From positions 189,805 through 253,804 of the forward strand of contig CALCZC010000007.1 of assembly GCA_937903605.1 (NCBI GenBank): a stretch of 64,000 nucleotides of DNA. Reading direction: 5' to 3'. Of this stretch, positions 5,701-24,600 are shown one piece after another. Under the pieces are notes generated by a model, which worked only from the letters and a program-made list of their open reading frames with translations, was not told the origin of the DNA and made no database searches. The first letter of the stretch is position 1, and every line of letters begins with the position of its first letter. This stretch comes from an uncultured bacterium (lineage in GTDB: Bacteria; Patescibacteriota; Patescibacteriia; Magasanikbacterales; GWA2-37-8). Position numbers and translations under genes: made by a program.

Positions 5701-8700
5701 CTACTGCCTCCGCCACCAGATGGCCAAGTATTGCGAGTCACTCCGCCCAAAGTGATGGAATCAGCCACCAAAATATCAGTGGTACTCACTGTGCCTAAAA
5801 CATTGATATTGTTTACAGTCAAATCCGAAATCGTAGTTGTAGCCAAAATTGAATTACCCAAAACATTCAGCGTGCCGTCAATATATACCGAAGAACTGGC
5901 ATAAATAATATCTTTGAACCACACCGGAAGAGTTGTGGAAGTTGTCAAAACATTTCCGCCGTTGTGCGAAGCTAACAACCAGTTGGCGGTCGCCCCGCCG
6001 GCACTCGCCAACAAATTTCCGTTCCAATAAAGATCTCCGCCAATGTTGTAAATAGAGTTGGTGGTAGTGGCTGTGGCCGTATCTCCAATATAAATACCTC
6101 CGTCAACGTGGAGTTTGTTAAGCGGATCATAAAGTGCTTGGCCGATACCCACAAACCCGGTTCCTGCCTGAATAGTCAAAATGTCGTCCCCTTCCGCCCC
6201 GACTGAGTCGTCCCAAAGACGAAAATCCAGAGAACTGGTCGGCATATACCAAGACCAACCATTGTCATAACTACCACTATTCACGCGACGGATATAATGT
6301 CCCGCCTCACCGTTACCATTGGCGACAATGGTAATATAATTACGAGAGCTGGTAGGACTGGAGCTTAAATCAGATCCCCAAACTTCCAAAAGATCATAAG
6401 GTGTGGAAGTGCCTATTCCAAAAGAACCCTCAAATGTGGCAAAAGATTTATTTTGTAAATCACCATGACCGTTACTAATAAAATATTCCACTGTGCCGGA
6501 AACTCCGTCCGCAGTATATCTCACCGGGAAAATATCAGTATCTGTTTTGAACTGGTTGGAAGTCAACACTATATGATCGTTGGCCGTATTGGCGGAGCTA
6601 AGGTAAACATTGTTTTCACTAACCCCCGGACCGGCCCAAGCAAAAGAAGAATTGGTGATTTGCACTCCGGATAAAACAGTGGAACTGTTCACATAAGCCG
6701 GAATCAATTTTACGCTTCCCGGAGCCACAGTCAAAATTGTTGCAAATGCCGAATCAACATAAGTATTAAATCTGGCATTATCATGATAAAAAATCTTAAC
6801 GTTATTTGCCGGAGCAGTGGCATAAATCGGAAAAGTGATTACAGGGTCTTTGATAGTAGCAATACTACGTAAACTTTGATTATCGGTATAAAGCACAGAT
6901 AGATCATCGTCACTGTCATAAGTATTTACAAAAATTTCCGGGTTATAGATATAAGCGTTGGTAATAGTTGAGCTGGTTAGATAAAAAATGGTATTTATTT
7001 TTGTCCCAACAGTATTGGTAGTTTGAGTAAAGTTGTATTTATTGGCGGTAAAACTTTCCAAAGTGCCGTTTTCTTGATAAACCACGGCTTGGATATCTTT
7101 ACTACCGTCCGTATATTTCGCACCCACAGTTACATTTTTCAAAACAGATTTACCTGCGCTTTTTATCTCTACCGCATAATCATCCGTATTTTCCAGATCA
7201 ACCATAGATAAAACACTGCCATAAGTCATATCAAACGTGACTTTGCCTTTGATAAAAGTATTACAACCCATACCTCGAACTACTACAAAATCTTTCATCT
7301 GCAAATCTTCGGTGAAAGTTCCGGCGGAAACTGAAACCGTATAAGGATTGGTAGAAGACGATAAAACCGCGGCCGTATCAATAGCGTTTTGGATGGTTTT
7401 TTTTGCTCTGGCCGTACTGTTGCCATCAAAACTGTCTTTACCGCTCACCGCGTTAACATAAATAATATTACCTTCAATAAGCGCGTCATTAATAACGATT
7501 TCCGACCAAACATTGTGATTATTATTGATATTGCGAAGTTCCATGATACCGTTATTGTCACGGAAACCATATCCTGCTGCTCCGGTCGTAGTGCCAAAAT
7601 TAATATAACGATTTTCTCCTTCAATAAAAACATTACCACTAATTGATAACGGGGCCAAAGGAGTGGAAGTACCGATACCAACATAACCGGCATTACCCCC
7701 GCCGGTTCCAACTATCACCATACTTCTTTGTTCGTCGGTTGGATCAACATCAAAAATAATATCTCCGCCCGAGGCCAATGTCGAAAGTAATAAATCACTG
7801 ACTGAATACAACGCCAAACTGCCGGAAATTCCCGGGAGTCCGTCATTCCAGCCGGAACTCAAGGCTGTCAAACCGCCCAATTTTCCCAAATCGTTATACA
7901 AACTAAATTCCGCAGTAGAAGAAGGACCGGAGTTGTTATTGTGAATAGCCAAATTTAATTCATCATTAGTATCTCCGTATAAATAAAAGGCCTTGCCATT
8001 GACAGTGGTAGTATTTATAGCCACTAAACCGTTTTCATCTATAATCACGCGCTCTGTGCCGGCTGTTTGAAAATGAATTTTGTTTTCATTTGGTGAAGCT
8101 TCGGTTTCCACTTTAGTATCTCCGTCCGCGTCTTGAATATATGTGCTAGTATTACCACCGACAACCGGCGAGCCGTTCCAATAAAGTTGCCCGCCAAGAT
8201 TATAAAGGGTGTAAGAAGTTACTGCCGGAGAAGTACTGCAAATAGACAATCCACCTATTAATGTCAAAGCGTTTTTTGGTGTGGTAGTACCAATACCGAT
8301 AAAACCGCTGCTAGACACAAAAATATTACTGGTCGGCGCCCAAGAATCTCCATCCCAATAAGCAAATTGCCCTTCGGTAACACCAGGATCAACAGCAGTC
8401 AAAGGAACACTATTCATAAGATAACTACCGGTAATATCTATATCTCCGTCAACAGTCAATTGTGAATTGGGAGTGGAAGTACCAATACCGACATTGTCAC
8501 TACTGCCTTGTACAAACAAGGCATAATCATTATCCGGCGTCTTAACTTGAAAATCATAATTTCCACTACTACTGTTAAATATCGCTCCTCCTTGGAAATA
8601 CATCAACGAATTAAACCCATCCAAAGTCATTAATTTATTATCAATCAAACTTTTACCATCACCGGTGTCGTTGTTATAAAAATTAAAAAGCAAATTGGAG

Positions 8701-11700
8701 TTTGTTCCATATTTTGACATCATCCAACCTCGCATACTGGAAGTAGAACCAAATCCATCGGTATCCGAATAAAGATACAATCCGGCAATAGCACTCCTAT
8801 CTCCGCTGATTGCGGATAATTTTGCCTCACTGCTAGTCGCTTGAACTCCGAGCATCGTTCTTTCTCCGGGATTGTCATTAACAAAGATTAAACCATTATT
8901 TCTATAATAATCAGCTTGATAAGATAGTTTCGGAAGAATAGCCATGCCCGTATCAATTTTGATAACATCTTGATTGATATTGGAGTGCCTACCAAATAAA
9001 ACCACCCCTTCTTCTTCAGCCAAAGCGTAAAAATAAACATTGGCCGGATTATTGATGCTAATATCGGCACTGGAAAAAGCTCCGTCGCTCGAAGAAATAT
9101 TTATGGACGAACTGTCTTTTTGATCAATATTCAAAGTGGCCGCTTTCTGCAAATAACTGGCCGTAACTTTGGTAGCGGAATCGTCATTGGTAATAATGTT
9201 ATAATCCAAACCCCACATGTTGGAATAACGAATTTCCGCATAAGATCCGTTTCCTTCTATAAAAAGCCCTGTGCCCAAATCGCTGTTGGATCCGAATTCA
9301 CTGCCAACCATATAAAAAGATGACGAACCTGTCGTACTTTTCAAATGTACAAATCTGTTTTCAACATTTTCCATATAAACATTTTCGACTTGAGCTGCAG
9401 CACCGTTGTCTAAATTCACACCAATATTGCCGATATTATAAAAATCTGATTTGAAAATATTTAACAAGTTGGCTACTTGCATATTTATACCTGTCTCTGT
9501 GTCTATAATCACCAATTCGGAAAAATCCATCCAAACACTGCCGGTATTACTAACTCTAATAGCATCGCAACCGGATGTATTTCGAAAACCGACGGTTTGT
9601 GAACCGTCAATGGTCAACAAACGAATAGAAAAATCATTTTCTTCAGAAAAATTTATTTCAAAAATAGGACCGGGAGAACTGACCAGGTCCGTTGTCGGAC
9701 GAATCATCACCGCTTCTGTACTCATACCTCGAATACTTTTTATGTGAGTACTGGTAACAACCAAAGTAGATGAAACATCATAAACTCCGGGATAAATATT
9801 TATTATAGTGTCATAATCAACACCATTAGCAAAAGCAACAGCGTCTTCCAAATTATCAAAATCTCCCCCGCTTTTGGCCACATTGATGATATGGTCAACT
9901 TTGGTCGAAAAATTATTCCAACCACCACTCGCGTTCTTCCATTGCATCACCCCGGCATTATCGCGAATACCATAACCTACTGTCCCTGTATTATTTCCGA
10001 AATTCAAATACCTATCCGCGCCGGTAATAGAAAGATTGCCATAAACATCCAAAGCGGAAAGAGGAGAAGTGGTACCGATACCGACAGAACCTCCAAAATA
10101 ATTCACAGATGCTGTACCATCGGAATAAATATTAAAATTGGAATTTTGAGCAAAATTTTGTTCTTCGATATAAAGTCCGTACAAACTTCCGATTGTTCCC
10201 GTTCCCGTGCCGCTGGTCGGGTTATTAATTCTCATTCCAAAAGCCGTTCCAATATTTCCTCCTTCTATACCAAAATCTGATTGAATAGCCGAAGCATTGG
10301 AAATAATCCCATTACCTATACCGTTTTCAATATAACCGCTTAAGCCCAAAGCCAATCCTATGTTTCCGCTAAAATTTACATCTCCGGAACCATTAGTCGC
10401 TGTTTGTCCTCTCAATCCGAAAGCAACACCAACACTTCCCGTGGAATTGTCCAACTCGGCAGAAGAAATTTGTCCCAAAATCATGTTAACCGATCCTGAA
10501 CCTTGATGAATAACTTGATTTAAAAGACCGGCGATAACTTCAAAATTATTATTATTACCTTCATTGGTTGTAACACTGAGCAAAGTATTGATTGTTGTAG
10601 AAGCATCTTCTATAGGATCAAGCTCTATACCCATAACATTACCCAAAGTAAAGCCGTCTCCTGAATTTGATAAATTTGTATATTTTTTATAAGAAGCAAA
10701 AACCGAACCGCTTGGAATCTCTGCGGGAAAATTTTCTCCCACCATCAATTGAGTGATCGTGGTGGTGGACAAAGTGGAACTTCCTATAACATTCAAGTTG
10801 TTATTTATTATCAAAGCTCCGGTCATGGTATCGCCTGCAACATTAACCCAATTGTCCGTACCGGAGACCATAAAAGAGGTACTAGTAAAACCACTCCCCA
10901 CCAAACTCGTGCCGTTAAACCAAATAAATTCATTGCTCGCAAAACTGCCGGCATTGGTGCCGCCATTGGCAATCGGCAAAATTCCCGCGATATCGGAAGT
11001 CAGGTTTACTGTTGAAGTAGACCAAACACCGTTGTTAATTTTTACAAAACCTGTCCAACCGCTAGTGTCTTGTCCTGTCCCGCCATAATTGGTCGCAATA
11101 ATATCACCCTGCCATGTACCGGCGGAAATAGTACCAAAAGAAGATGCTCCGGTTAAGATAAGATTGGCAATAGTAGTCGTTGCCATCAGAGTATTTCCGG
11201 TAATGGCTAAATTTCCACTAATACTGGAAGTGGCAGTGCTACTGTTCATGGTTAAGTTTGCACCTGTAAATCCGCCGGATAAAATATTTAAATTCAAATT
11301 GTTATCCAGAGCCAAAAGCGTATTGGCCACAGCAGTGGAAGAAGCATGAAAACCGTCAACTCTGTCGGAATTGAAAGCATACGGATGAGTCGCCAAAATC
11401 ACACGCGGACTGGCTTCGTTGTCACTTTCTATTTTTACCGCCAAATAATAAGTACCTGTGCTAAAATCCAAATAACTCGGAAAAGCGCCGCAAGCACCAA
11501 GATTTACGGTAAAATATCCTTGGGCATCAGGTTGAACTTTGGGACAATTTCCGGAACTGCCGTCATAGACTTCAGTCCAAAGCAAAGGTCCGGCGGAACT
11601 TGGCGTATCTGTAGGAACTCCGGTGTTTGCGTTGTTATAAATAGAAAATTGAATAGTGGTAGAAGTAGTAATCGGCGTTCCTCCGTTATCTCGCAATCTG

Positions 11701-11852
11701 CCTTGGTAATTTATCAGGTTTGGAATAGCTAAAACTTCTTTACCTATAAAAGAAAAAACCGTCACTAACGCAACAAAAAACATGGCTTTCTGTATATTCA
11801 TCTTTAGAAAGTTAACAAGGAGTTTGGATTTTATTCCCCTCCGAATATTCAT
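2757..11852 (-). CDS. Giant (3031 aa) secreted cell-surface protein with beta-helix domains, recurring GIGT(S/T)TP motif and Pro/Glu/Thr-rich C-terminus
   Basis: Uninterrupted 9.1-kb ORF with an N-terminal signal peptide. Two beta-helix cap-like motifs (AVSGKDSFDGNSTARAKKTIQNAIDTA; AKSGGDFDNLEDAVAFANG). At least 8 copies of VGIGTSTP-like motifs. Tail (ETP/VEP)n. Confidence 0.8.
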   Translation of the reverse strand: MNIRRGIKSKLLVNFLKMNIQKAMFFVALVTVFSFIGKEVLAIPNLINYQGRLRDNGGTPITTSTTIQFSIYNNANTGVPTDTPSSAGPLLWTEVYDGSSGNCPKVQPDAQGYFTVNLGACGAFPSYLDFSTGTYYLAVKIESDNEASPRVILATHPYAFNSDRVDGFHASSTAVANTLLALDNNLNLNILSGGFTGANLTMNSSTATSSISGNLAITGNTLMATTTIANLILTGASSFGTISAGTWQGDIIATNYGGTGQDTSGWTGFVKINNGVWSTSTVNLTSDIAGILPIANGGTNAGSFASNEFIWFNGTSLVGSGFTSTSFMVSGTDNWVNVAGDTMTGALIINNNLNVIGSSTLSTTTITQLMVGENFPAEIPSGSVFASYKKYTNLSNSGDGFTLGNVMGIELDPIEDASTTINTLLSVTTNEGNNNNFEVIAGLLNQVIHQGSGSVNMILGQISSAELDNSTGSVGVAFGLRGQTATNGSGDVNFSGNIGLALGLSGYIENGIGNGIISNASAIQSDFGIEGGNIGTAFGMRINNPTSGTGTGTIGSLYGLYIEEQNFAQNSNFNIYSDGTASVNYFGGSVGIGTTSPLSALDVYGNLSITGADRYLNFGNNTGTVGYGIRDNAGVMQWKNASGGWNNFSTKVDHIINVAKSGGDFDNLEDAVAFANGVDYDTIINIYPGVYDVSSTLVVTSTHIKSIRGMSTEAVMIRPTTDLVSSPGPIFEINFSEENDFSIRLLTIDGSQTVGFRNTSGCDAIRVSNTGSVWMDFSELVIIDTETGINMQVANLLNIFKSDFYNIGNIGVNLDNGAAAQVENVYMENVENRFVHLKSTTGSSSFYMVGSEFGSNSDLGTGLFIEGNGSYAEIRYSNMWGLDYNIITNDDSATKVTASYLQKAATLNIDQKDSSSINISSSDGAFSSADISINNPANVYFYALAEEEGVVLFGRHSNINQDVIKIDTGMAILPKLSYQADYYRNNGLIFVNDNPGERTMLGVQATSSEAKLSAISGDRSAIAGLYLYSDTDGFGSTSSMRGWMMSKYGTNSNLLFNFYNNDTGDGKSLIDNKLMTLDGFNSLMYFQGGAIFNSSSGNYDFQVKTPDNDYALFVQGSSDNVGIGTSTPNSQLTVDGDIDITGSYLMNSVPLTAVDPGVTEGQFAYWDGDSWAPTSNIFVSSSGFIGIGTTTPKNALTLIGGLSICSTSPAVTSYTLYNLGGQLYWNGSPVVGGNTSTYIQDADGDTKVETEASPNENKIHFQTAGTERVIIDENGLVAINTTTVNGKAFYLYGDTNDELNLAIHNNNSGPSSTAEFSLYNDLGKLGGLTALSSGWNDGLPGISGSLALYSVSDLLLSTLASGGDIIFDVDPTDEQRSMVIVGTGGGNAGYVGIGTSTPLAPLSISGNVFIEGENRYINFGTTTGAAGYGFRDNNGIMELRNINNNHNVWSEIVINDALIEGNIIYVNAVSGKDSFDGNSTARAKKTIQNAIDTAAVLSSSTNPYTVSVSAGTFTEDLQMKDFVVVRGMGCNTFIKGKVTFDMTYGSVLSMVDLENTDDYAVEIKSAGKSVLKNVTVGAKYTDGSKDIQAVVYQENGTLESFTANKYNFTQTTNTVGTKINTIFYLTSSTITNAYIYNPEIFVNTYDSDDDLSVLYTDNQSLRSIATIKDPVITFPIYATAPANNVKIFYHDNARFNTYVDSAFATILTVAPGSVKLIPAYVNSSTVLSGVQITNSSFAWAGPGVSENNVYLSSANTANDHIVLTSNQFKTDTDIFPVRYTADGVSGTVEYFISNGHGDLQNKSFATFEGSFGIGTSTPYDLLEVWGSDLSSSPTSSRNYITIVANGNGEAGHYIRRVNSGSYDNGWSWYMPTSSLDFRLWDDSVGAEGDDILTIQAGTGFVGIGQALYDPLNKLHVDGGIYIGDTATATTTNSIYNIGGDLYWNGNLLASAGGATANWLLASHNGGNVLTTSTTLPVWFKDIIYASSSVYIDGTLNVLGNSILATTTISDLTVNNINVLGTVSTTDILVADSITLGGVTRNTWPSGGGGSSIWVTTTANVVYPDLTGDYAVVVGNSATSSNVKFEVVGHSKLGGNLSVTGTSTLSGPVLFGDNIQFTTAGNNNFYFNNGINNYLRWNNSATQFELSNGLMVSGLVSSTALQVNGDVTTTGKMVIGGPVGIGTTTPQAPLHVVTDNAGPAMTILQKTIAGATNLNFVTQNNKYWQLSKRDDNQDDKFIFYFVDDAGLFNNVLTLNSTGTIGINQQDPGAMLSITGTTTYPLLSIMTSSSEPALIVNQYGHVGIGTSDIGYYKLRIYEPDNGLTAEVKSGSSTKTALFNLKAGSDVEFLQLGYYGIDTPGFAGVLPGSAVWDSVAPGGSYFINESTSTDAALIFMTDGWQAENERMRITNGGYIGIGTSTPISKLSLNEGDFRITSGTDGWIIGPNAFPNRAGSTDLIGLNVTNSSTWKAGLFSEVGGTLLSYGINATQLGDRNTSSIGAIFRLDTRADTPYWSIKRQPVGSSTEYSDMQIARTGEIGFGGFANDTNVFSGQVHILTATTTNVGLAVQGMVGQTAALQHWLNSDGVVVGEAKYLSQNFGMSLETGAFIARNSYFGEEFMRGRGNVTADTLYAWGDFQQFTVDENTACTWSSVANGVNGIGRQQATNGANSCLAYHGITTAGTANLVFNTANLPVITFKASPSAVTANIRFRIGLSNLSRAQTADPLNGVYFTNNTTNGEWQGVSRRAGASTVVDCAGQAINTAVFGVAKIEVVSSNGDGTGEINFYIDNDATDGVDWFYCGQATTNIPTVGLTSMIMNNTVAGGGAQYIDIDYYRVWQDDSKETPMLTTEEIVEEIPEEMETNLLGQAQIMAGDISVKVDFEGEYAVPPMMGITPLNFDGRWKLQNVTTRGFEITLTEQATDSVIFNWQAYIVEDDTKIYSSNGTVESLKDFYNKINEEIILPPIESSGESTPSAPIEAPAETPIEPVTETPPAETPVEPVEETPPVEEPVPDTSPTEEPAAPAETPADVPVE

Positions 11853-12000
11853 AATGTTTTTACTATATTATTATACCATATATACAATTTTCAAAAAACC
11901 TCTCAGCTAGCCAAAATAAATAAACTGTGGATAACTTGTGTATAAACAAAAAACTCGCTTTTTTCGCGAGTTTTAATTCAAAAATATAAATTCAAAAATC

Positions 12001-12717
12001 CTAAATATTAGCGAGCGCTGTTATAGTAATTACCCCGTTATAACTACCTGATTTTTGATCTATTGGCGCGCTGGCACGATAATCAACCACAGTCACGGTA
12101 GTGCCCCAATTACATGTCGGACAATTCATAAATTGCGAATTTACAGTTGGAAATCCGCCATATTTAGCATTTAGAAGAGTGTCATCACTACCCCACCAAG
12201 CATTGTTATAATTGGAAGTCGTGCCTGATTGTTTTACACGAAAAGACAGATTGTTTCCCGGTGTATTTGTGGCATTGCCGGAACCGCTCGGATTCCAAGA
12301 AACATAATCCGGGAAATCAACCGATGAATCAACGGTCAAATCTACAGTTGAACTTACATCCTCTCTTTTGACTGACAAATTATATCCACTTAATGAACCG
12401 GGTATAGTAACATAAACCGCAGAACTGGCAAAAGTTGGTATATTTGGCAATATTTCTCCAAAATTTACAGTCGGCTCAACAGTAATTACCATCATAGGAA
12501 ATTCCATTACCAATCCGTGATCATAAATATAGTTTGTACTGGTGGCTCTACCTACCGCCGGATCACCAGCTCCACCTTTTAATTGAAAACCACTGGAAGT
12601 AGCGTCGTGATAGATAGTGCCGTAAGTTTGTCTATCAATTTGATTCTGCGCCAAAACTACCTGAGAAGTTATCAGGCACGATATCAAAATAACGGCTAAT
12701 TTTAGAGAAAAAGACAT
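12001..12717 (-). CDS. Secreted protein, WxL-like C-terminus (paralog A)
   Basis: Signal peptide; C-terminal SYNGVITITALANI; paralogous to 12964..13650. Confidence 0.7.
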   Translation of the reverse strand: MSFSLKLAVILISCLITSQVVLAQNQIDRQTYGTIYHDATSSGFQLKGGAGDPAVGRATSTNYIYDHGLVMEFPMMVITVEPTVNFGEILPNIPTFASSAVYVTIPGSLSGYNLSVKREDVSSTVDLTVDSSVDFPDYVSWNPSGSGNATNTPGNNLSFRVKQSGTTSNYNNAWWGSDDTLLNAKYGGFPTVNSQFMNCPTCNWGTTVTVVDYRASAPIDQKSGSYNGVITITALANI

Positions 12718-12721
12718 AAAA

Positions 12722-12860
12722 AAACAAACTCAAATCTCAAAGTTCAAATCTCAAAACTTTTGTATTGATTGGCAATATTCAAATTATCCGTCCCGCCAAG
12801 CGGGACTCCAAACTTTTGACTTTTGAGTTTTGAATTTTGATATTTTATATTATACCTCAT
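12722..12860. promoter_or_regulatory. Divergent promoter region with long imperfect palindrome around a GC hairpin
   Basis: Arms ctcaaatctcaaagttcaaatctcaaaacttt / aaacttttgacttttgagttttgaattttga flank gtcccgccaagcgggac. Confidence 0.4.
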
Positions 12861-12963
12861 TTTACCGTTATTCGTAAAACTAATTACTTATCCACATATT
12901 TTTCGTTTTTATATTTTTTCCCTATTATCAAAAAAATCAAAAAATAGTATAATACCTTGTGGA

Positions 12964-13650
12964 ATGATTTTAACATTAAATCATTTCAATAAATTAATAA
13001 ATTTATTTATTAACCTAATTTATTTTATGAGGAGGAAACTTCTTTCTTTCATCGTCCTTATGGCGATGTTTACCGCTTATAGCGGATATTTAAATCTCGG
13101 CGTGGCCAAAGCCGCCGAAGACAGTGAACAACAAACTATAGTTTTGTATGTCACTTCAACCATCACTTTAACATTGGCGACTTCCACGATAAATCTCGGC
13201 ACTTTAACTCCGGGAACTCCTGTCAACGGCAATACTTCTTTGACAGTCACTACCAACGATCATAATGGTTTCAACTTACAAGTAAAAAGAGACGACGCTG
13301 ATTCCACTTTGGATTTGGATGCTGATGGCACTGTCAATTTTCCAGATGCTACAGCTTGGAATTACTCTGCGCCAAATGCCACAACTTCTCCTGAAGTAGG
13401 AGCCAATCTTTCTTTCCGTTTGATGGTGGCCGGTACTGACGCCGCTTTGCAAAATACAGGTTTTTGGGGAACTGACGGAGCCAAACTTTGGGCCGGTTTT
13501 CCAACTACCAATCAACGCGTAACAGGTATCAGCAGTTGGGTTGGAGCAGCTCAAAATGTCGCTTACGAATTTAGAGCCGATGCTCCGGCTACTCAGGAAT
13601 CCGGTCAATACACAGGTACTATTACCTTTACCGCGATTACCAATCCATAA
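12964..13650 (+). CDS. Secreted protein, WxL-like C-terminus (paralog B); true start probably MRRKLL near 13030
   Basis: Signal peptide; C-terminal YTGTITFTAITNP resembles the WxL distal motif YxxxITWxLxxxP. Confidence 0.7.
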   Translation: MILTLNHFNKLINLFINLIYFMRRKLLSFIVLMAMFTAYSGYLNLGVAKAAEDSEQQTIVLYVTSTITLTLATSTINLGTLTPGTPVNGNTSLTVTTNDHNGFNLQVKRDDADSTLDLDADGTVNFPDATAWNYSAPNATTSPEVGANLSFRLMVAGTDAALQNTGFWGTDGAKLWAGFPTTNQRVTGISSWVGAAQNVAYEFRADAPATQESGQYTGTITFTAITNP

Positions 13651-13673
13651 ATTAACAATTTAATTTCATTTTT

Positions 13674-14627
13674 ATGAAAAGCATGTTGAACTGGAGGGTT
13701 CTTACGGTTTTTTTCTTAGTTGTTTTTTGTACGCTTTTCAAAATAGAAGCTGCGTCCGCGCAGCTTTCTATTTCTATCTATCCTCTTTCCTTTAAAGCAC
13801 AGGTAAATCCTGGAGATACCTGGAGCGGCAGCGTCACGGTTATAAACCCCAATGATTATCCTATTTCCGTTCGTCCTGAAAGAGAAAATCTTGTTGGAGG
13901 CGCGGAAGGTGAAGTTAGTTTAATAGGAGAAACTGATCAGAACTACGGTCTAGCTTCTTGGATTAAATACAACTCTGAAAAAGACTTCGTTTTAGCGGCC
14001 GGAGAAAGAAGAAAAATAGATTTTGTGATGAATGTGCCAAAAAACGCCCAACCTGGCGGACATTACGGTGCGGTTCTTTTTCGCGGCACGGAAATAAATA
14101 AAAAGCCATCCGGAGAAAGCGGACTTGGTGTAGCCGGGCGCGTAGGATCGGTAATGCTCTTTGAAGTCAGTGGAGACGTGCAAAAAACCGGAGAAATTTT
14201 TTCCGTTGAAACAAAGAAATTTATCGCTCACGGACCTCTTGATCTGACTTTTAAAGTCAAGAATACTGGTAATACTTTTTTCTTACCTGAAGGAAAAGTT
14301 GAATTCAAACATTTTTGGAAAAAACTTGAAACTACTTGGGAACCGCGCGTGGTATTTCCGGGATATGAAAGAACATTCAAAACAACTCTTGATAAAAAAT
14401 ATCTTTTTGGTCCTGTCAAAGCCACTATTTTGGCCAAAATGAGCGACGGAGCGGATTTAACCCCGATTTCCGTGACTGTTTGGGCATGGCCTTGGAAAGA
14501 AACATTGATCTTACTCGGTATTATCGCCGTGCTTTGGTTATTGAAAATTTGGTTGCTAAAAAACTTCAAAATTGTTAAAATAGAAAAAACGGAAAATACA
14601 GACGAAAATAAAAAAGGAGATGCCTAA
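13674..14627 (+). CDS. Secreted beta-rich protein with C-terminal TM anchor (DufA/DUF916-DUF3324-like topology)
   Basis: Signal peptide, roughly 270-aa ectodomain, C-terminal helix LILLGIIAVLWLLKIWLL, short charged tail. Confidence 0.6.
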   Translation: MKSMLNWRVLTVFFLVVFCTLFKIEAASAQLSISIYPLSFKAQVNPGDTWSGSVTVINPNDYPISVRPERENLVGGAEGEVSLIGETDQNYGLASWIKYNSEKDFVLAAGERRKIDFVMNVPKNAQPGGHYGAVLFRGTEINKKPSGESGLGVAGRVGSVMLFEVSGDVQKTGEIFSVETKKFIAHGPLDLTFKVKNTGNTFFLPEGKVEFKHFWKKLETTWEPRVVFPGYERTFKTTLDKKYLFGPVKATILAKMSDGADLTPISVTVWAWPWKETLILLGIIAVLWLLKIWLLKNFKIVKIEKTENTDENKKGDA

Positions 14628-15723
14628 ACGATTGTTAAAATCAATCTTTGCGACACAAGCCTCGAAATATTTCCTTTTGGGGCTTGTGTTTTTATTGTCC
14701 GCTCTGCCGGCTTTGGTTTTTGGCGCCGTAGTCACACAAAATGTAACCGTTTCCATCGATAATAGCTCTTATCACTGTTCCAACAAAACTCAAGATTATG
14801 ATGAAACCGGTGTGGATTGTGGCGGAACGCTTTGCGGAACTTGCGGAACACATTGTACAAACGGAATTAAAGATTTTGACGAAACAGGCGTTGATTGCGG
14901 AGGGTCTTTGTGTCCTTCTTGCGGCGGGGGTGGAGGCGGTGGCGGGGGTGGAGGGGGTTCTCTGCCGGTTTTAGTTTCTTCAGTAAACTTTTCCGGTTTT
15001 GCTTATCCGAATGCCAAAATATTTTTTCTTCGCGACGGAATTTTGGTTAATACCTTTTTTGCTTCTTCAACCGGAACTTTTCAATATTTGTTAAATTCCA
15101 TTACTGCCGGTAATTATCGTTACACCTTTTACGCTTCCGACTCAAGAGGAGGATATTCTTCTTCTTTGGTTTTTCCTTTAACCGTGGTTGCCGGAAATTC
15201 TTATCAAGTAAGCAACATTTTGATTCCTCCGACCTTATATTTCAATTCTCAAGAAATAAAGCGCGGTGACAGTTTAGAATTTTATGGTCAAAGCGCACCA
15301 AACTCAATTCTTCTGCTGGAATTAAAAAATTCTGTTTCCGGAAATACTTCCGCTTTTCAAACCATCGCCGATTCTTCGGGAAATTATTCTTATCTTTTAG
15401 AAACCTTGGGGTTGCCGGAAGGAAATTATGAAATCAAAATCAAAATGAAAATCGGTCTTATTGAAAGCGCTTTTAGCAATTCTTTTCCTTTTACGATCGG
15501 CGTCAAAACAGTGGAAAAACCCGTTCCTACGAGTAAATGTCCGGCCAAAGGCGATCTTAACGGCGATTGTAGAGTAAATTTGGTTGATTTTTCCATTGCC
15601 GCTTATTGGTACAAACGCACGGTCGCCACAAGTTTTATCAATACGGAAAATTCACAACTCAACGGCGATGATATTATCAACTTGATAGATTTTAGTATTT
15701 TGGCTTATTATTGGACCGGGTAG
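14620..15723 (+). CDS. Secreted Cys-rich repeat protein with poly-Gly linker and C-terminal dockerin-like repeats
   Basis: Two YDETGVDCGG.LC..CG repeats; a Gly12 run; GDLNGDCRVNLVDFSIAAY and QLNGDDIINLIDFSILAYYW match the dockerin Ca-binding repeat consensus. Confidence 0.7.
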   Translation: MPKRLLKSIFATQASKYFLLGLVFLLSALPALVFGAVVTQNVTVSIDNSSYHCSNKTQDYDETGVDCGGTLCGTCGTHCTNGIKDFDETGVDCGGSLCPSCGGGGGGGGGGGGSLPVLVSSVNFSGFAYPNAKIFFLRDGILVNTFFASSTGTFQYLLNSITAGNYRYTFYASDSRGGYSSSLVFPLTVVAGNSYQVSNILIPPTLYFNSQEIKRGDSLEFYGQSAPNSILLLELKNSVSGNTSAFQTIADSSGNYSYLLETLGLPEGNYEIKIKMKIGLIESAFSNSFPFTIGVKTVEKPVPTSKCPAKGDLNGDCRVNLVDFSIAAYWYKRTVATSFINTENSQLNGDDIINLIDFSILAYYWTG

Positions 15724-15727
15724 TGAA

Positions 15728-15778
15728 AGTTCGGCTAGGCGCCCTTAGCGCCCTATTGCCGAAGGCAAGCCGAACTTC
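15728..15778. repeat. GC-rich three-stem structured element
   Basis: agttcggc ... gccgaact encloses ggcgcccttagcgcc and ttgccgaaggcaa. Confidence 0.45.
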
Positions 15779-15810
15779 TACTACCCGGTGGACCGGGATA
15801 ATGTAAAGAT

Positions 15811-16098
15811 ATGTTTTTTTACGTTTATATTATACAAAGTTTAAAAAATAAAAGCCTTTATGTTGGCTATACCCAAGATTTAATAAAAAGATTAGACCAA
15901 CACAATGATGGCAATAGTACGTATACAAAAAAATATATACCTTGGCAATTAATTCACTACGAAGCTTACCGCAATGAAATAGATGCAAAACGCAGAGAAA
16001 AATATCTCAAAACAAATCAGGGGAGCCGTTTATTGAAGCGTATGTTAAAAGAATACTTTTATAATCAAAATTCCAATGATTCAGATTCAAAAACTTAA
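15811..16098 (+). CDS. GIY-YIG nuclease family protein (second copy)
   Basis: FYVYIIQS...SLYVGYTQDLIKRLDQHN...KKY...EKYLK. Confidence 0.75.
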   Translation: MFFYVYIIQSLKNKSLYVGYTQDLIKRLDQHNDGNSTYTKKYIPWQLIHYEAYRNEIDAKRREKYLKTNQGSRLLKRMLKEYFYNQNSNDSDSKT

Positions 16099-17014
16099 AA
16101 ATCACCTCTTGATACCAATGGTTATTTTGGGAGCTTTCTTTGTAATTACACCTACTTTGGCTGCGGAATTTTTTGCCACAGCTTCCAATCATAATCCTGA
16201 AATCGGTGAATACATACAAGTGGACTTATTTTTGGATACTGCCAAAGAAGAAATAAACGCTTTGGAAGCCGCTGTTATTTTTCCTGAAAATTTGTTGGAT
16301 CTGGTGGATTTTTCTTATGGAAATTCGGTTATCAATTATTGGGTGGAAAAACCTCACCAAACTGACGAACATAATAAAATATTTTTTTCAGGTATTACTC
16401 CCGGCGGATTCAACGAAAACTCAGCTTATTTGTTATCTTTGATTTTTAAAACCAAAAATACCGGCCGCGGTGAAATACTTTTTTCTCAAAATAAAACTTT
16501 GAAAAACAACGGCTTTGGCACGGAAACGAAGAGTTCGGGAAAAAAACTTTCTTTCAATGTTCAAACCGGTCTCAAAGGTGATGATACGGAAAATATTTAT
16601 AAAAATTTAGACAAAATACCTCCGGAAAACTTTGATCTTTTTGTTTATGAAGATAATAATATCGCTTCCGACAAGAAAGCTTTGATTTTTGACACGATAG
16701 ACAAAGATTCCGGGGTATCCCGTTATGAAGTATTAGAAGAAAAAACCGGACACTTGTTAGGTTGGGAATTTAAAATAGGACGCTGGACTCCGGCAACCAG
16801 CCCTTATGTTTTGCAAGATCAACAAATGCGTAGCAATATCTATGTCAAAGCCATAGACAGAGCCGGAAATGAACGAATTGTCTCATTAATGACCGTTCAG
16901 ACTCCGCGATGGTATACGAATTTGAATTTTTGGATTATAATAATAACTGTAATCATACTTCTCATTTTATCCAGGAGGGCTTATGAGAGATTTTCGCGGA
17001 AAAATAAAAATTAA
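16076..17014 (+). CDS. Cohesin-like domain surface protein with C-terminal TM anchor
   Basis: Signal peptide; IGEYIQVDLFLDTAKEEINALEAAVIFPENLLDLVDFSYG pattern typical of a cohesin beta-sandwich; C-terminal TM WIIIITVIILLIL. Confidence 0.55.
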   Translation: MIQIQKLKNHLLIPMVILGAFFVITPTLAAEFFATASNHNPEIGEYIQVDLFLDTAKEEINALEAAVIFPENLLDLVDFSYGNSVINYWVEKPHQTDEHNKIFFSGITPGGFNENSAYLLSLIFKTKNTGRGEILFSQNKTLKNNGFGTETKSSGKKLSFNVQTGLKGDDTENIYKNLDKIPPENFDLFVYEDNNIASDKKALIFDTIDKDSGVSRYEVLEEKTGHLLGWEFKIGRWTPATSPYVLQDQQMRSNIYVKAIDRAGNERIVSLMTVQTPRWYTNLNFWIIIITVIILLILSRRAYERFSRKNKN

Positions 17015-17798
17015 ACTGGCGATTTTTGTCGCTTCTATTTTTGCTTCTTTTGCTTTTGTTTCGATTTCCGAAGCGGCTTCTTTGTATTTTTCACCGAGTT
17101 CAGCGACTTATCGTCTCGGTGAAACTTTCCAAATTTCTCTGTATGTAAATAGTGCCGATCAAGCTATGAATGCCGCTCAAGCAACGGTCAATTTTCCAAT
17201 CGACAAACTTTCTGTTATTTCCGTTTCCACTAGAAATTCTATTTTTTCCTTAATGGTGGAAAGTCCTACTTTTTCCAATGTAAATGGTAGTGCCGGTTTC
17301 TCCGGAATAGTTTTGAATCCCGGATATACCGGAAAAAGTGGCCGATTGGTAACAATAAATTTCTCAGCCAAGACTTTAGGAAAAGCAACGATTACCGTTG
17401 GTGGGGCTCAAGTTTTGGCCAATGACGGAGTTGGTACAAATATTTTAACCGGTCGTGGCAGTGCTACGGTAAATATTATTGAGAGACCCAAAGTTGAACC
17501 TAAACCAGAAGTTAAGCCGGAAACAAAACCTACCACTACTCCGGAAGTTGTTACTCCAACCACCACACCAACTACGACAATTATTTATGTAACAACCACA
17601 CAATATATTATAACCTCTACCGCTTGCTCGGTTGAAAAACTACCGGTAATTTATTTGAAAATCGGTGGACTATCTACTGGTCCCAGTTTCTTACTCTTAC
17701 TGTTACTCATACTTTCCGCGTTGATAACAATTTATAGTTTTTATAAAGGCTTCACCTATCCGGAAAAAAAGAAAAGAATTTTTGGAAAGAGAAAATAA
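16983..17798 (+). CDS. Cohesin-like domain surface protein with Thr/Pro linker and C-terminal anchor
   Basis: LGETFQISLYVNSADQAMNAAQATVNFPIDKLSVISVS...GRLVTINFSAKTLGKATI; (TTP) linker; C-terminal LSTGPSFLLLLLLILSALI plus a basic tail. Confidence 0.6.
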   Translation: MRDFRGKIKIKLAIFVASIFASFAFVSISEAASLYFSPSSATYRLGETFQISLYVNSADQAMNAAQATVNFPIDKLSVISVSTRNSIFSLMVESPTFSNVNGSAGFSGIVLNPGYTGKSGRLVTINFSAKTLGKATITVGGAQVLANDGVGTNILTGRGSATVNIIERPKVEPKPEVKPETKPTTTPEVVTPTTTPTTTIIYVTTTQYIITSTACSVEKLPVIYLKIGGLSTGPSFLLLLLLILSALITIYSFYKGFTYPEKKKRIFGKRK

Positions 17799-24516: not shown

Positions 24517-24600
24517 GTCCCGCTAAGCGGGACTATAACCTCGGCTTATCTTCGCGAGGCCCCGCTGAGCGGAGCTATATTGACGCTCAGCGCCGAGGTT
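24517..24600. repeat. GC-hairpin cluster (gtcccgcTAAgcgggac, ccccgcTGAgcgg, gacgcTCAgcg)
   Basis: Direct reading; long-range pairing aacctcggc/gccgaggtt encloses two of the hairpins. Confidence 0.55.

What the first reader, a model, noticed from the sequence alone, without database searches (positions are those of the whole stretch)
12001..14627. Divergent pair of paralogous secreted proteins with WxL-like C-termini plus a DufA-like C-terminally anchored partner
The 238-aa and 228-aa proteins are clear paralogs. Shared blocks include G(F/Y)NL.VKR(D/E)D..ST(L/V)DL, NLSFR and (Y/V)(E/D)(F/Y)RA.AP..Q(E/K)SG.Y.G.IT. Both carry signal peptides. Their C-terminal ends are YTGTITFTAITNP and SYNGVITITALANI, which resemble the distal WxL-domain motif YxxxITWxLxxxP of low-GC Gram-positive surface proteins with the Trp replaced. 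The next gene encodes a 317-aa protein with a signal peptide, a beta-rich ectodomain and a single C-terminal TM helix with a short basic tail. That is the topology of the DUF916/DUF3324 (DufA) partner in enterococcal and lactobacillal WxL (Csc) clusters. Paralog A sits directly upstream of the 3031-aa giant protein on the same strand. This suggests a WxL-type non-covalent cell-wall display system in a CPR-like genome that lacks sortase signals.
Basis: partly seen in the sequence, partly recalled or inferred. Interest (0 to 1): 0.7.

Follow-up and report, generated by a model that had tools for sequence, protein, structure and literature searches.

The report
Usher-less chaperone–pilin locus in CPR bacterium
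Two related secreted proteins with the incomplete-Ig fold of chaperone-usher pilins sit next to a membrane-anchored chaperone that is homologous to the WxL-interacting protein of Gram-positive bacteria, so this locus links the newly described "Pam" pili of ultrasmall CPR bacteria to the long-puzzling WxL surface-protein clusters.

Summary
A (238 aa) and B (228-aa ORF, probably 207 aa from ATG 13027) are paralogs (39% identity over 158 aa, E=8e-31). C (317 aa) has a signal peptide, two beta-sandwich domains and a C-terminal TM helix.

The DufA/WxLIP call for C is well supported. 43 of 50 family members hit Pfam DUF916. hhalign against Firmicutes WxLIP gives 98.5% probability over both domains. 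Its best structural matches are solved E. faecium WxLIP, then PapD/FimC/Caf1M/CsuC chaperones.

The WxL call for A and B is not established. None of 169 family members hits Pfam WxL, and profile-profile similarity is weak (10-25% probability) though in register. B's confident model matches donor-strand pilins (CsuA/B, CfaB, Fim/Pap). B's family hits NCBI's Pam pilin C-domain model, and all 27 A-type proteins hit PamT, all below cutoff.

The domain family (601 cluster representatives) occurs as small proteins and at the C-terminus of large adhesin-like proteins, always next to the WxLIP-like gene.

Best reading: an usher-less, chaperone-assisted donor-strand surface fibre, a new variant of the Pam pilus that shares its chaperone family with WxL clusters.

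The parts
12001..12717 (-). Paralog A, 238 aa: secreted PamT-like subunit. It has a C-terminal pilin-like domain, a conserved N-terminal extension of about 50 aa, and an invariant Cys pair in NCxTCN.
   Evidence: ORF. Paralogy to B. The A1 HMM hits it at E=7e-67. NCBIfam PamT hit at E=2.3e-6, and 27 of 27 A-type orthologs hit PamT, all far below the 240-bit cutoff. Alignment A4.
12493..12648 (-). N-terminal extension specific to the A-type (residues about 24-75, DR.TYGT.YHDATS..F.LKGG.GDPAVGRS.S.NYI.DHGLV). It aligns to the N-terminal half of the PamT model and replaces the QTIxLxV strand found in B.
   Evidence: A4 conservation. The PamT match covers protein residues 7-116 and model positions 8-125 of 241.
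12718..13026 (.). Divergent intergenic and promoter region between A and B. It has promoter-like sites on both strands and a nested palindrome around a GC hairpin.
   Evidence: Promoter-like TTATCA-17-TATAAT at 12925-12953 (+) and TTTACG-18-TATAAT at 12878-12849 (-). Inverted repeat 12732-12756 / 12821-12845 and hairpin 12790-12806. These are consensus matches only.
13027..13650 (+). Paralog B: secreted single-domain pilin-like subunit. The longest ORF starts at 12964 (228 aa); the probable start is 13027 (207 aa).
13132..13176 (+). Candidate donor strand at the mature N-terminus of B (residues 57-71, QTIVLYVTSTITLTL). Residues 57-63 are strongly conserved and alternately hydrophobic, but unpaired in the monomer model.
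   Evidence: Column conservation: Q57 88%, T58 96%, V63 94%, with hydrophobic residues at 59/61/63 and 67/69/71. DSSP shows the first strand only from residue 67. The donor-strand role is an inference.
13267..13290 (+). GFNLQVKR strand of B. The family consensus is GWxLxVKR, which corresponds in position to the proximal WxL motif.
   Evidence: A1 consensus, with G102 and R109 invariant. hhalign places this strand on the GW.L strand of WxL.
13603..13647 (+). C-terminal strand of B, GQYTGTITFTAITNP. The family signature is G.Y.G.IT(Y/F)TA..NP, always at the extreme C-terminus, with the same Tyr-to-Pro spacing as the distal WxL motif.
   Evidence: C-termini of 144 representatives. hhalign register against WxL.
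13674..14627 (+). C, 317 aa: WxLIP/DufA homolog with a PapD-like two-domain fold and a C-terminal TM anchor. It is the proposed membrane-tethered chaperone.
   Evidence: as set out in the report.
14088..14168 (+). Hairpin of C (residues 139-165). A variable, low-confidence loop is followed by the conserved alternating segment SG(V/L)G(I/V)SGRVGSV.L.EV. It is the proposed complementing strand, equivalent to the WxLIP hairpin and to the G1 strand of PapD.
   Evidence: pLDDT dips to 66 at residues 141-150. Conservation profile. It aligns to the EfmWxLIP1 segment ...GAQIKNRIAY. AlphaFold2 in PMC10599100 predicts that this hairpin inserts into WxL. Its role here is inferred.
14493..14564 (+). C-terminal transmembrane helix of C (residues 274-297), followed by a basic tail.
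   Evidence: Helix in the AlphaFold2 model; sequence.
14620..15723 (+). D, 367 aa: conserved operon member with Cys-rich repeats, Ig-like domains and a weak C-terminal dockerin match.
   Evidence: Pfam Dockerin_1 E=3.6e-4, below cutoff. BLAST finds orthologs directly after C in 19 of the 20 closest loci and in a second clade.
16076..17014 (+). E, 312 aa: conserved operon member with a signal peptide and a C-terminal TM helix. It is a candidate membrane anchor.
   Evidence: Sequence. Conserved position after D in L014-L033. Function not established.
16983..17798 (+). F, 271 aa: conserved operon member with a beta-rich ectodomain, a Thr/Pro-rich linker and a C-terminal TM helix. One ortholog (L003) carries a weak cohesin hit.
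   Evidence: Sequence. Cohesin (weak) in L003. Conserved position.
2757..11852 (-). Giant 3031-aa fibre-like surface protein downstream of A. It carries no pilin domain. Its N-terminal module (about residues 5-165) recurs next to WxLIP-like genes in distant lineages.
   Evidence: No A1 HMM hit. Weak Bdello_MAT_N hit. N-terminal HSPs to large proteins beside WxLIP-like genes in L064, L066, L078, L085, L088, L089 and L092. The Pam preprint reports a 'tail fibre-like protein' central to pam neighbourhoods.
11950..11974 (-). Terminator-like hairpin between the stop codon of A and the start of the giant. It may act as an attenuator that keeps the subunit in excess over the giant.
   Evidence: Consensus scan only.

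Best explanation
The locus most likely encodes a chaperone-assisted, usher-less donor-strand surface fibre of a monoderm CPR bacterium (Magasanikbacteria-like). It is a single-domain variant of the Pam pilus.

Proposed steps:
1. A and B are exported by Sec. They fold into an incomplete Ig-like, pilin-type domain with a missing strand.
2. C is tethered to the outer face of the membrane by its C-terminal helix. It caps each subunit by inserting its conserved hairpin strand (residues about 149-165) into that groove.
3. The conserved N-terminal strand of the next B subunit (QTIxLxV) then displaces the chaperone strand by donor-strand exchange, so a B polymer grows from its base.
4. A has a PamT-like N-terminal extension in place of that strand, so it would act as the distal cap or adaptor.
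5. The downstream TM-anchored proteins E and F, and the adjacent giant fibre protein, are candidates for the anchor and the cargo.

What is shown: paralogy; the pilin-like fold of B; homology of C to WxLIP and its PapD-like fold; conserved synteny; family architecture.

What is inferred: strand complementation and exchange; polymerisation; the roles of A, E, F and the giant.
For: - Pam pilin C-domain model: B is matched over model positions 3-146 of 148; 14 of 49 and 26 of 120 family members hit it, best E=1e-8.
- PamT model: 27 of 27 A-type proteins hit it.
- C: top fold hits are solved WxLIP (9i25_C, 9i1y), followed directly by CfaA, SafB, Caf1M, FimC, DraB, CsuC and PapD at E 1e-9 to 3e-7. 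hhalign to WxLIP gives 98.5%.
- PamC/D are described as PapD/FimC-like chaperones with a C-terminal TM helix, and Pam filaments assembled by donor-strand exchange were solved by cryo-EM (bioRxiv 10.64898/2026.03.03.709456).
- AlphaFold2 predicts that the WxLIP hairpin inserts into WxL to complete its sandwich (PMC10599100).
- B's N-terminal strand and C's hairpin are both conserved and alternately hydrophobic, and both are unpaired or of low confidence in the monomer models.
- Synteny: 20 of 20 closest loci have a pilin-domain gene directly upstream of the WxLIP-like gene, and 17 of 17 with enough flank have at least two. One such cassette abuts the ATP synthase operon, as reported for pam operons.
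Against: - All hits to the Pam models are far below NCBI's cutoffs (19 against 55 bits; 27 against 240 bits).
- No multimer model or filament data exist for this family.
- A and B are single-domain proteins, whereas PamA and PamB have an N-terminal domain that stabilises the linear filament.
- No PamR-like anchor was identified.
- I could not obtain the PamC/D sequences, so whether they belong to the WxLIP family is an inference.
- Published work on the WxLIP family reads it as a static peptidoglycan-display complex, not a polymeriser.
Confidence: 0.58

Rival explanations
1. This is a WxL-type static display system. A and B are highly diverged WxL domains that bind peptidoglycan non-covalently. 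C (WxLIP) stays in a stable 1:1 complex that holds them, and possibly the giant protein, on the wall. Nothing polymerises.
For: C is a true WxLIP homolog. The cluster architecture matches the published WxL definition of at least one WxLIP plus at least two domain proteins, in small and large forms, with the domain always C-terminal. The family consensus keeps a proximal GWxL, and the C-terminal strand has the spacing of the distal WxL motif. hhalign to WxL is weak but in register, P about 1e-3 against 0.3-0.4 for decoys. A solved WxLIP-long WxL complex exists (9i25).
Confidence: 0.27
2. A and B are self-assembling donor-strand fibres of the TasA / archaeal thread / cannulae type and need no chaperone. 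C is an independent Ig-fold adhesin that merely shares the operon.
Against: The pilin-domain gene is strictly adjacent to the WxLIP-like gene across many CPR lineages. C has a PapD-like fold and a conserved hairpin at the position of the chaperone G1 strand. No SipW-type signal peptidase or camelysin-like features were seen among the cluster proteins scanned.
Confidence: 0.08
3. The genes are ordinary, unrelated secreted proteins, and the clustering and similarity have no functional meaning.
For: None specific. All named-family hits for A and B are below curated thresholds.
Against: A-B E=8e-31. 601 family representatives. The five-gene order is conserved across CPR classes. Confident, specific folds.
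Confidence: 0.02

Closest known systems
Pam pilus of Candidatus Mycosynbacter amalyticus (Troman et al., bioRxiv 10.64898/2026.03.03.709456; NCBIfam NF058579 PamT, NF058581 Pam_pilin_C)
   Same: CPR host. Secreted subunits with a C-terminal truncated-Ig pilin domain; B aligns to the whole CTD model. A PamT-like subunit of the same size (238 aa against a 241-position model). A two-Ig-domain PapD-like chaperone tethered by a C-terminal TM helix. No usher. An associated giant 'tail-fibre-like' protein. In a related locus, adjacency to the ATP synthase operon.
   Different: All scores are far below NCBI's cutoffs. The lineage is Magasanikbacteria/Paceibacteria rather than Saccharimonadia/Microgenomatia. 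A and B are single-domain proteins with no PamA/B-type N-terminal domain. There is one chaperone gene, not two. No RbmA-like PamR was recognised. The cassette has extra dockerin- and cohesin-like TM-anchored genes (D, E, F). No filament has been observed.
WxL (Csc) surface-protein clusters of Lactobacillales and Listeria, with WxLIP/DufA (PF06030 DUF916 + PF11797 DUF3324 + TM helix)
   Same: C is a full-length WxLIP homolog (98.5% hhalign; best PDB fold and sequence hit). The gene order is the same, with the small domain protein immediately upstream of WxLIP. Both have small single-domain forms and large forms with a C-terminal domain. The domain is about 170-180 aa and lies at the extreme C-terminus. 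The family consensus has a proximal GWxL, and the distal strand has the same spacing.
   Different: A and B are not recognised by Pfam WxL. Both Trp residues are replaced in the window's proteins. No LPXTG partner gene is present. The host is CPR rather than Bacillota. Peptidoglycan binding is unknown. The domain's sequence affinity is to the Pam pilin models, which Firmicutes WxL proteins do not hit.
Classical, alternate and archaic chaperone-usher pili (Fim, Pap, CFA/I, Csu, Caf1)
   Same: B has the incomplete-Ig pilin fold and C has the PapD-like two-domain chaperone fold. The proposed mechanism of donor-strand complementation and exchange is the same.
   Different: There is no outer membrane and no usher. 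The chaperone is membrane-anchored instead of soluble in the periplasm. There is no detectable sequence homology, only sporadic weak fimbrial hits. The similarity may be homology or convergence.
Chaperone-independent donor-strand fibres (TasA, archaeal threads, cannulae, bundling pili)
   Same: Monoderm or archaeal context. Beta-sandwich subunits joined by donated strands. Several appear among B's fold matches.
   Different: Those systems have no dedicated PapD-like chaperone, whereas here the WxLIP-like gene is strictly linked.

Membership tests
WxL gene cluster (Hassan & Williamson 2022/2023 definition) | At least one WxLIP protein: DUF916 (PGBD) followed by DUF3324 (HBD) and a C-terminal TM helix | tested here: met
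   C itself scores 20.7 bits on PF06030, against a cutoff of 27.3, but 43 of 50 orthologs hit it, best E=1.2e-9. hhalign to 7 Firmicutes WxLIPs gives 98.5% over 251 columns spanning both domains. The Foldseek top hits are 9i25_C and 9i1y WxLIP. The TM helix lies at residues 274-297. No family member hit a Pfam DUF3324 model in the scan at E<=0.01; the second domain is supported only by hhalign and by fold.
WxL gene cluster (Hassan & Williamson 2022/2023 definition) | At least two proteins with a WxL domain (Pfam PF13731) within four genes of WxLIP | tested here: not met
   A and B flank C correctly, but 0 of 49 (E<=0.1) and 0 of 120 (E<=0.01) family members hit PF13731.
WxL gene cluster (Hassan & Williamson 2022/2023 definition) | Two conserved Trp-x-Leu motifs on adjacent strands, the distal one near the C-terminus (YxxxITWxLxxxP) | tested here: inconclusive
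   In A and B both Trp residues are replaced (GYNL/GFNL; ITITAL/ITFTAI). The family consensus keeps GWxLxVKR at the proximal site, and the distal strand keeps the Y...T.(F/Y/I).....P spacing without Trp. hhalign gives 10-25% probability and P 7.5e-4 to 2.9e-3, against decoys at 0.31-0.41.
WxL gene cluster (Hassan & Williamson 2022/2023 definition) | The domain is always C-terminal; small (about 180 aa mature) and large multi-domain forms coexist | tested here: met
   This holds at family level: many proteins of 400-3773 aa carry the domain at their extreme C-terminus. The window itself holds only two small forms; the giant lacks the domain.
WxL gene cluster (Hassan & Williamson 2022/2023 definition) | Non-covalent binding to peptidoglycan | not testable with these tools
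   Needs biochemistry.
Pam pilus system (NCBIfam NF058581 / NF058579; Troman et al. 2026) | Pilin with the Pam C-terminal truncated-Ig domain, scoring at or above the NF058581 cutoff of 55 bits | tested here: not met
   B scores 19.2 bits (E=1e-3) but over model positions 3-146 of 148. 14 of 49 and 26 of 120 members hit the model, best E=1e-8, all below cutoff. The family is related but lies outside the curated family.
Pam pilus system (NCBIfam NF058581 / NF058579; Troman et al. 2026) | PamT tip subunit (equivalog cutoff 240 bits) | tested here: not met
   A scores 27.2 bits, E=2.3e-6, over the N-terminal half only. 27 of 27 A-type orthologs hit the model, best E=1.8e-8. A is a distant homolog, not an equivalog.
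Pam pilus system (NCBIfam NF058581 / NF058579; Troman et al. 2026) | PapD/FimC-like chaperone carrying a C-terminal TM helix (PamC/PamD) | tested here: met
   C's fold matches CfaA, SafB, Caf1M, FimC, CsuC and PapD at E 1e-9 to 3e-7 and it has a C-terminal TM helix. Direct sequence comparison with PamC/D was not possible because their sequences could not be obtained.
Pam pilus system (NCBIfam NF058581 / NF058579; Troman et al. 2026) | Two-domain major pilins (nine-strand NTD + linker donor strand + CTD) | tested here: not met
   A and B are single-domain proteins. Multi-domain members exist elsewhere in the family.
Pam pilus system (NCBIfam NF058581 / NF058579; Troman et al. 2026) | Filament assembled by donor-strand exchange | not testable with these tools
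Only indirect evidence exists: conserved unpaired strands.
Classical chaperone-usher pathway | Outer-membrane usher protein | tested here: not met
   No usher-family hit in A-F (Pfam and NCBIfam) or in the giant (NCBIfam only). None is expected in a monoderm.
Classical chaperone-usher pathway | Incomplete-Ig pilin fold plus PapD-like chaperone fold | tested here: met
   The similarity is structural only; there is no significant sequence homology.

The most novel reading that the evidence does not exclude
WxL clusters of Firmicutes, this large unannotated CPR family and the Pam pili may be one ancient superfamily of monoderm 'chaperone-only' (usher-less) donor-strand systems. WxLIP/DufA/PamC-D would be the membrane-anchored PapD-like chaperone, and WxL / Pam-CTD domains would be the strand-accepting subunits. 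If so, WxL proteins are assembled, and perhaps polymerised, by donor-strand exchange rather than simply sticking to peptidoglycan. The chaperone half of the chaperone-usher pathway would then predate, or exist independently of, the outer-membrane usher.
Probability: 0.4. Interest if true: 0.78.

Novelty: new variant of a known kind. Interest (0 to 1): 0.58.

Why it matters
WxL/Csc clusters have been known in lactobacilli, enterococci and Listeria since 2006 and are tied to virulence and adhesion, but their mechanism is still unclear. Pam pili were described only in 2026, as a CPR-exclusive novelty, and that preprint does not mention WxL or DUF916.

This locus carries Pam-like subunits next to a clear WxLIP homolog, and that WxLIP homolog has the PapD-chaperone fold. 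That gives a concrete and testable bridge: WxLIP may be a membrane-tethered pilus chaperone, and WxL systems may be usher-less donor-strand assemblies.

The work also shows that Pam-like machinery extends well beyond Saccharimonadia and Microgenomatia. It appears in Magasanikbacteria, Paceibacteria, Minisyncoccia and other groups, through a family of at least 601 sequence clusters. Many of these are large adhesin-like proteins, which are candidates for how episymbiotic CPR cells attach to their hosts.

Tried and rejected
- Single-sequence and profile searches of PDB sequences with A, B and A1 found nothing meaningful. The Pam pilin structures do not appear to be in the PDB copies searched.
- The AFDB50 fold library, which would have listed WxL and Pam relatives by name, was unavailable.
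- The search for related loci with the pilin alignment failed because no stretch was conserved enough. The chaperone alignment was used instead.
- The word-indexed profile search with A1 stayed within the family and returned no annotated relatives.
- Firmicutes WxL and WxLIP proteins hit no NCBI Pam model, so there is no transitive link.
- ORFs from Saccharimonadales-labelled loci were tested for PamA/B/C/D equivalence. Only sub-threshold Pam_pilin_C hits came back, and no chaperone model hit. PamC/D = WxLIP therefore remains an inference.
- The first hhalign of the pilin domain against 8 WxL sequences gave 13%. A broader CPR profile gave 5.6%. With 24 distinct WxL domains it gave 10-25%. The signal is consistent but never significant.
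- I looked for an ATP synthase operon in the window, as reported near pam operons. The 513-aa candidate is GatB.
- I checked whether the giant protein carries the pilin domain, as a 'large WxL' would. It does not.
- I considered a TasA/camelysin-type fibre and plain unrelated secreted proteins. Both are disfavoured by the strict linkage to the WxLIP-like gene.
- Literature searches found no paper that mentions WxL together with chaperone-usher, PapD or donor-strand concepts. No paper for PDB entries 9i25 and 9i1y turned up in these searches.


Full report
**1. Observation**

A is 12001..12717 (-), 238 aa. B is 12964..13650 (+), 228 aa. C is 13674..14627 (+), 317 aa. A lies 148 bp upstream of the 3031-aa giant (2757..11852) on the same strand, and A and B are transcribed divergently.

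A and B are clear paralogs: BLASTP gives 39% identity over 158 aa, E=8e-31.

One correction applies to B. All of its homologs begin at MRRK.., so B most likely starts at ATG 13027 and is 207 aa long. A promoter-like TTATCA-17-TATAAT lies at 12925-12953.

The closest named relatives (84% identity) are from Candidatus Magasanikbacteria / Patescibacteria MAGs.

**2. The 317-aa protein C**

- Pfam gives one hit, PF06030 WxLIP_PGBD (formerly DUF916), at E=4.5e-4. It is below the cutoff, 20.7 against 27.3 bits. Across 50 orthologs, 43 hit PF06030, best E=1.2e-9, and NCBI names one of them a DUF916 domain-containing protein.
- An AlphaFold2 model built on the family alignment is confident, with mean pLDDT 90. 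It shows a signal helix, two beta-sandwich domains (34-165 and 173-271) and a TM helix (274-297).
- Against the PDB, its two best Foldseek matches are solved Enterococcus faecium WxLIP structures: 9i25_C, 'bound to long WxL', and 9i1y, both at E about 2e-10. Directly after them come the pilus chaperones CfaA, SafB, Caf1M, FimC, DraB, CsuC and PapD, at E 1e-9 to 3e-7, with RbmA among them.
- The family profile also picks EfmWxLIP1 as its best PDB sequence hit, E=7e-4.
- I collected seven WxLIP genes from annotated Firmicutes plasmids. hhalign of the CPR family against them gives 98.5% probability, E=2.6e-15, over 251 columns covering both domains.

C is therefore a genuine WxLIP/DufA homolog, and WxLIP itself has the PapD-chaperone fold.

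**3. The paralogs A and B**

Sequence searches:
- Pfam finds nothing for A or B. No family member hits the WxL domain model: 0 of 49 at E<=0.1 and 0 of 120 at E<=0.01.
- NCBIfam gives weak hits to two new CPR models. A hits NF058579 PamT (E=2.3e-6). B hits NF058581 Pam_pilin_C (E=1e-3, covering model positions 3-146 of 148).
- These hits recur across the family. 14 of 49 and 26 of 120 members hit Pam_pilin_C, best E=1e-8. All 27 A-type orthologs hit PamT, best E=1.8e-8. Every hit is far below the curated cutoffs of 55 and 240 bits.

Background on the models. They derive from a 2026 preprint (bioRxiv 10.64898/2026.03.03.709456). It reports cryo-EM structures of Pam pili from Ca. Mycosynbacter amalyticus.
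- The pilins have a C-terminal truncated Ig domain that is completed by a strand from the neighbouring subunit.
- PamT is a single-domain tip subunit.
- PamC and PamD are PapD/FimC-like chaperones with a C-terminal TM helix.
- PamR is a TM-anchored terminator.
- A 'tail fibre-like protein' and ATP synthase genes lie in the neighbourhood.

Structure of B:
- The AlphaFold2 model is confident, with mean pLDDT 91.
- No WxL chain appears in either top list.

**4. Family architecture and synteny**

An exhaustive HMMER search with the A/B profile finds 601 cluster representatives at E<=1e-3. Many are proteins of 400-3773 aa with the domain at their extreme C-terminus. Their N-terminal parts are beta-propellers, fn3, LamG and PARCEL repeats. 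The C-terminal signature Y.hDhP..Q..G.Y.G.hT(Y/F)TA..NP is universal in the family.

I then started from the chaperone gene and collected 80 loci from GTDB species genomes. They span Magasanikbacteria, Paceibacteria, Minisyncoccia, Woesebacteria, Jorgensenbacteria, Microgenomates, Saccharimonadales, Berkelbacteria, Moranbacteria and other groups.
- In all 20 closest loci a pilin-domain gene ends just upstream of the WxLIP-like gene on the same strand.
- All 17 of those with enough flank have a second pilin-domain gene. In the Magasanikbacteria group it is the divergent A-type. In ten of the other lineages it is a large protein (440-2962 aa) with the domain at its C-terminus. In L019 and L032 it is a smaller protein of 215-261 aa.
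- The order B, C, D, E, F is conserved in these loci, except that BLAST finds no D in L022. One such cassette abuts the ATP synthase operon.

The window's giant has no pilin domain. Its N-terminal module (about residues 5-165), however, recurs in large proteins immediately downstream of WxLIP-like genes in distant lineages.

This layout of small protein, large protein with a C-terminal domain, and WxLIP is the published definition of a WxL cluster (PMC9772566, PMC10599100). In Firmicutes plasmids the small WxL gene likewise lies directly upstream of WxLIP in most clusters.

**5. Is the A/B domain a diverged WxL domain?**

At motif level the resemblance is real.
- The family consensus has TN...GW.L.VKR, compared with V.D.RG...GW.L.V in WxL. 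A has GYNL and B has GFNL at this site.
- The C-terminal strand G.Y.G.IT(F/Y)TA..NP has the same Tyr-to-Pro spacing as G.Y..TL.W.L...P. Compare YTGAITWTLSGN in the Lactobacillaceae plasmid loci L096 and L100 with YTGTITFTAITNP in B.

Profile-profile comparison used 24 distinct WxL domains from 18 plasmid loci.
- It gives only 10-25% probability (P 7.5e-4 to 2.9e-3).
- The alignment falls on the homologous strands, and is collinear when extended.
- Reversed decoys give P 0.31-0.41. Unrelated profiles mostly give 0.12-0.73; one (A1 against WxLIP) reached 0.017 on a short N-terminal stretch.

I therefore rate membership of the WxL domain family as not demonstrated. Remote homology is plausible.

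**6. Mechanism**

Two sequence features point to donor-strand chemistry.
- The mature N-terminus of B has a highly conserved, alternately hydrophobic segment: Q57 88%, T58 96%, I59, L61, V63 94%. The monomer model leaves it unpaired, since the first strand begins at residue 67.
- C has a variable, low-confidence loop (139-148; pLDDT 66) followed by the conserved alternating segment SG(V/L)G(I/V)SGRVGSV. It aligns with the EfmWxLIP1 segment. AlphaFold2 predicts that this segment becomes a strand inserted into a gap of WxL (PMC10599100). Geometrically it is equivalent to the G1 donor strand of PapD-like chaperones.

A lacks the QTIxLxV strand. In its place it has a conserved PamT-like extension of about 50 aa and an invariant Cys pair.

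The best-supported model has these steps:
1. A and B are exported by Sec.
2. The membrane-tethered chaperone C caps each subunit.
3. Donor-strand exchange with the N-terminal strand of the next B builds a fibre.
4. A acts as the distal cap or adaptor.

The anchor is not identified. E and F, both with C-terminal TM helices, are candidates. D carries a weak dockerin match, and one F ortholog carries a weak cohesin match. A terminator-like hairpin between A and the giant would fit differential expression.

Only the folds, the homologies and the synteny are shown. Complementation, exchange and polymerisation are inferred.

**7. Comparison and novelty**

The locus works like a Pam pilus and is organised like a WxL cluster, but it passes the curated thresholds of neither subunit family. 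Only its chaperone is a confident member of a named family (WxLIP).

The Pam preprint does not mention WxL or DUF916. No paper in the searchable library mentions WxL together with chaperone-usher or donor-strand concepts.

I classify the locus as a new variant of a known kind. It is a single-domain, Magasanikbacteria-type version of the usher-less Pam/WxL-like system, and it belongs to a large unannotated domain family.

The more novel reading is that WxL clusters and Pam pili are one chaperone-only donor-strand superfamily. That is plausible, at about 0.4, but it needs multimer modelling, structural superposition with WxL and the Pam CTD, and a direct comparison of PamC/D with WxLIP. I could not run any of these.

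Noticed in passing
window 15811-16098 (+): A 95-aa ORF with a GIY-YIG-type N-terminal motif (YVYIIQS...LYVGYT; family assigned by eye, not tested) sits between operon genes D and E and overlaps the start of E by 23 nt. In the near-identical contig L014 and in L001 and L015 the insertion is absent and D is followed directly by E, so it looks like a strain-specific insertion of a small nuclease gene into the operon.
   Followed up: partly
window 12725-12850 and 24517-24533: The divergent A/B intergenic region holds a nested palindrome. Its 25-nt arms (12732-12756 / 12821-12845, 88% complementary) flank a GC hairpin, GTCCCGCCAAGCGGGAC (12790-12806). A second copy of the hairpin core, with one mismatch, lies in another intergenic region at 24517-24533. 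The chance expectation is 0.01 matches. It may be a repeated regulatory or terminator element.
   Followed up: partly
window 2757-11852 (-), residues about 5-165 of the giant; loci L064, L066, L078, L085, L088, L089, L092: The N-terminal module of the 3031-aa giant (IPNLINYQGRL..., with a weak Bdellovibrio 'mosaic adhesive trimer' N-domain hit) recurs at 29-35% identity in proteins of up to 2785 aa directly downstream of WxLIP-like genes in distant lineages. This suggests a functional link between giant fibre proteins and this chaperone family.
   Followed up: partly
window 14620-17798 (+): Three conserved downstream genes may form a cohesin-dockerin-like display module. D has two Cys-rich repeats (C..K..D.DETGVDCGG.LC..CG), a Gly run, Ig-like domains and a weak C-terminal dockerin hit. 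E and F have beta-rich ectodomains with C-terminal TM helices, and one F ortholog carries a weak cohesin hit.
   Followed up: partly
window 11950-11974 (-) and 13746-13767 (both strands): A terminator-like hairpin lies directly after the stop codon of A, ahead of the giant gene. A perfect GC-rich palindrome (GAAGCTGCGTCCGCGCAGCTT) lies inside the signal-peptide-coding part of C, just downstream of B. Both could act as attenuators that set the ratio of subunit to partner.
   Followed up: no
loci L058 and L061 (MAGs labelled Saccharibacteria / Saccharimonadales): Genes alternate along these loci: a pilin-like gene of about 370-390 aa, a WxLIP-like gene of 315-339 aa, another pilin-like gene, then a WxLIP-like gene of 411-414 aa. 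That gives two chaperone paralogs per locus, reminiscent of PamC and PamD in the published pam operon. The pilins hit Pam_pilin_C only below its cutoff.
   Followed up: partly
loci L014, L034-L041, L045, L047, L049-L051, L055-L056, L064, L075, L078-L081, L083, L085, L088, L092: Many TPA MAG records that carry this CPR-type cassette are titled 'uncultured Gammaproteobacteria', 'Pseudomonadales' or 'Bdellovibrionales'. One of them, L014, is 84-100% identical to the window across the cluster proteins (B 100%, C 97%). These organism labels look unreliable.
   Followed up: no
loci L096, L099, L100 (Lactiplantibacillus, Melissococcus and Levilactobacillus plasmids): The genes directly upstream of WxLIP are annotated only as 'hypothetical protein', yet they match an iterated WxL profile at E 1e-27 to 1e-52. 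WxL-domain proteins are therefore under-annotated even in Firmicutes.
   Followed up: partly
window 38218-39759 (+): The 513-aa ORF is GatB, the Asp/Glu-tRNA amidotransferase subunit B (E=1.7e-112 to PDB 3h0l_B). It was identified while checking for an ATP synthase operon, and that check found none near the locus.
   Followed up: yes
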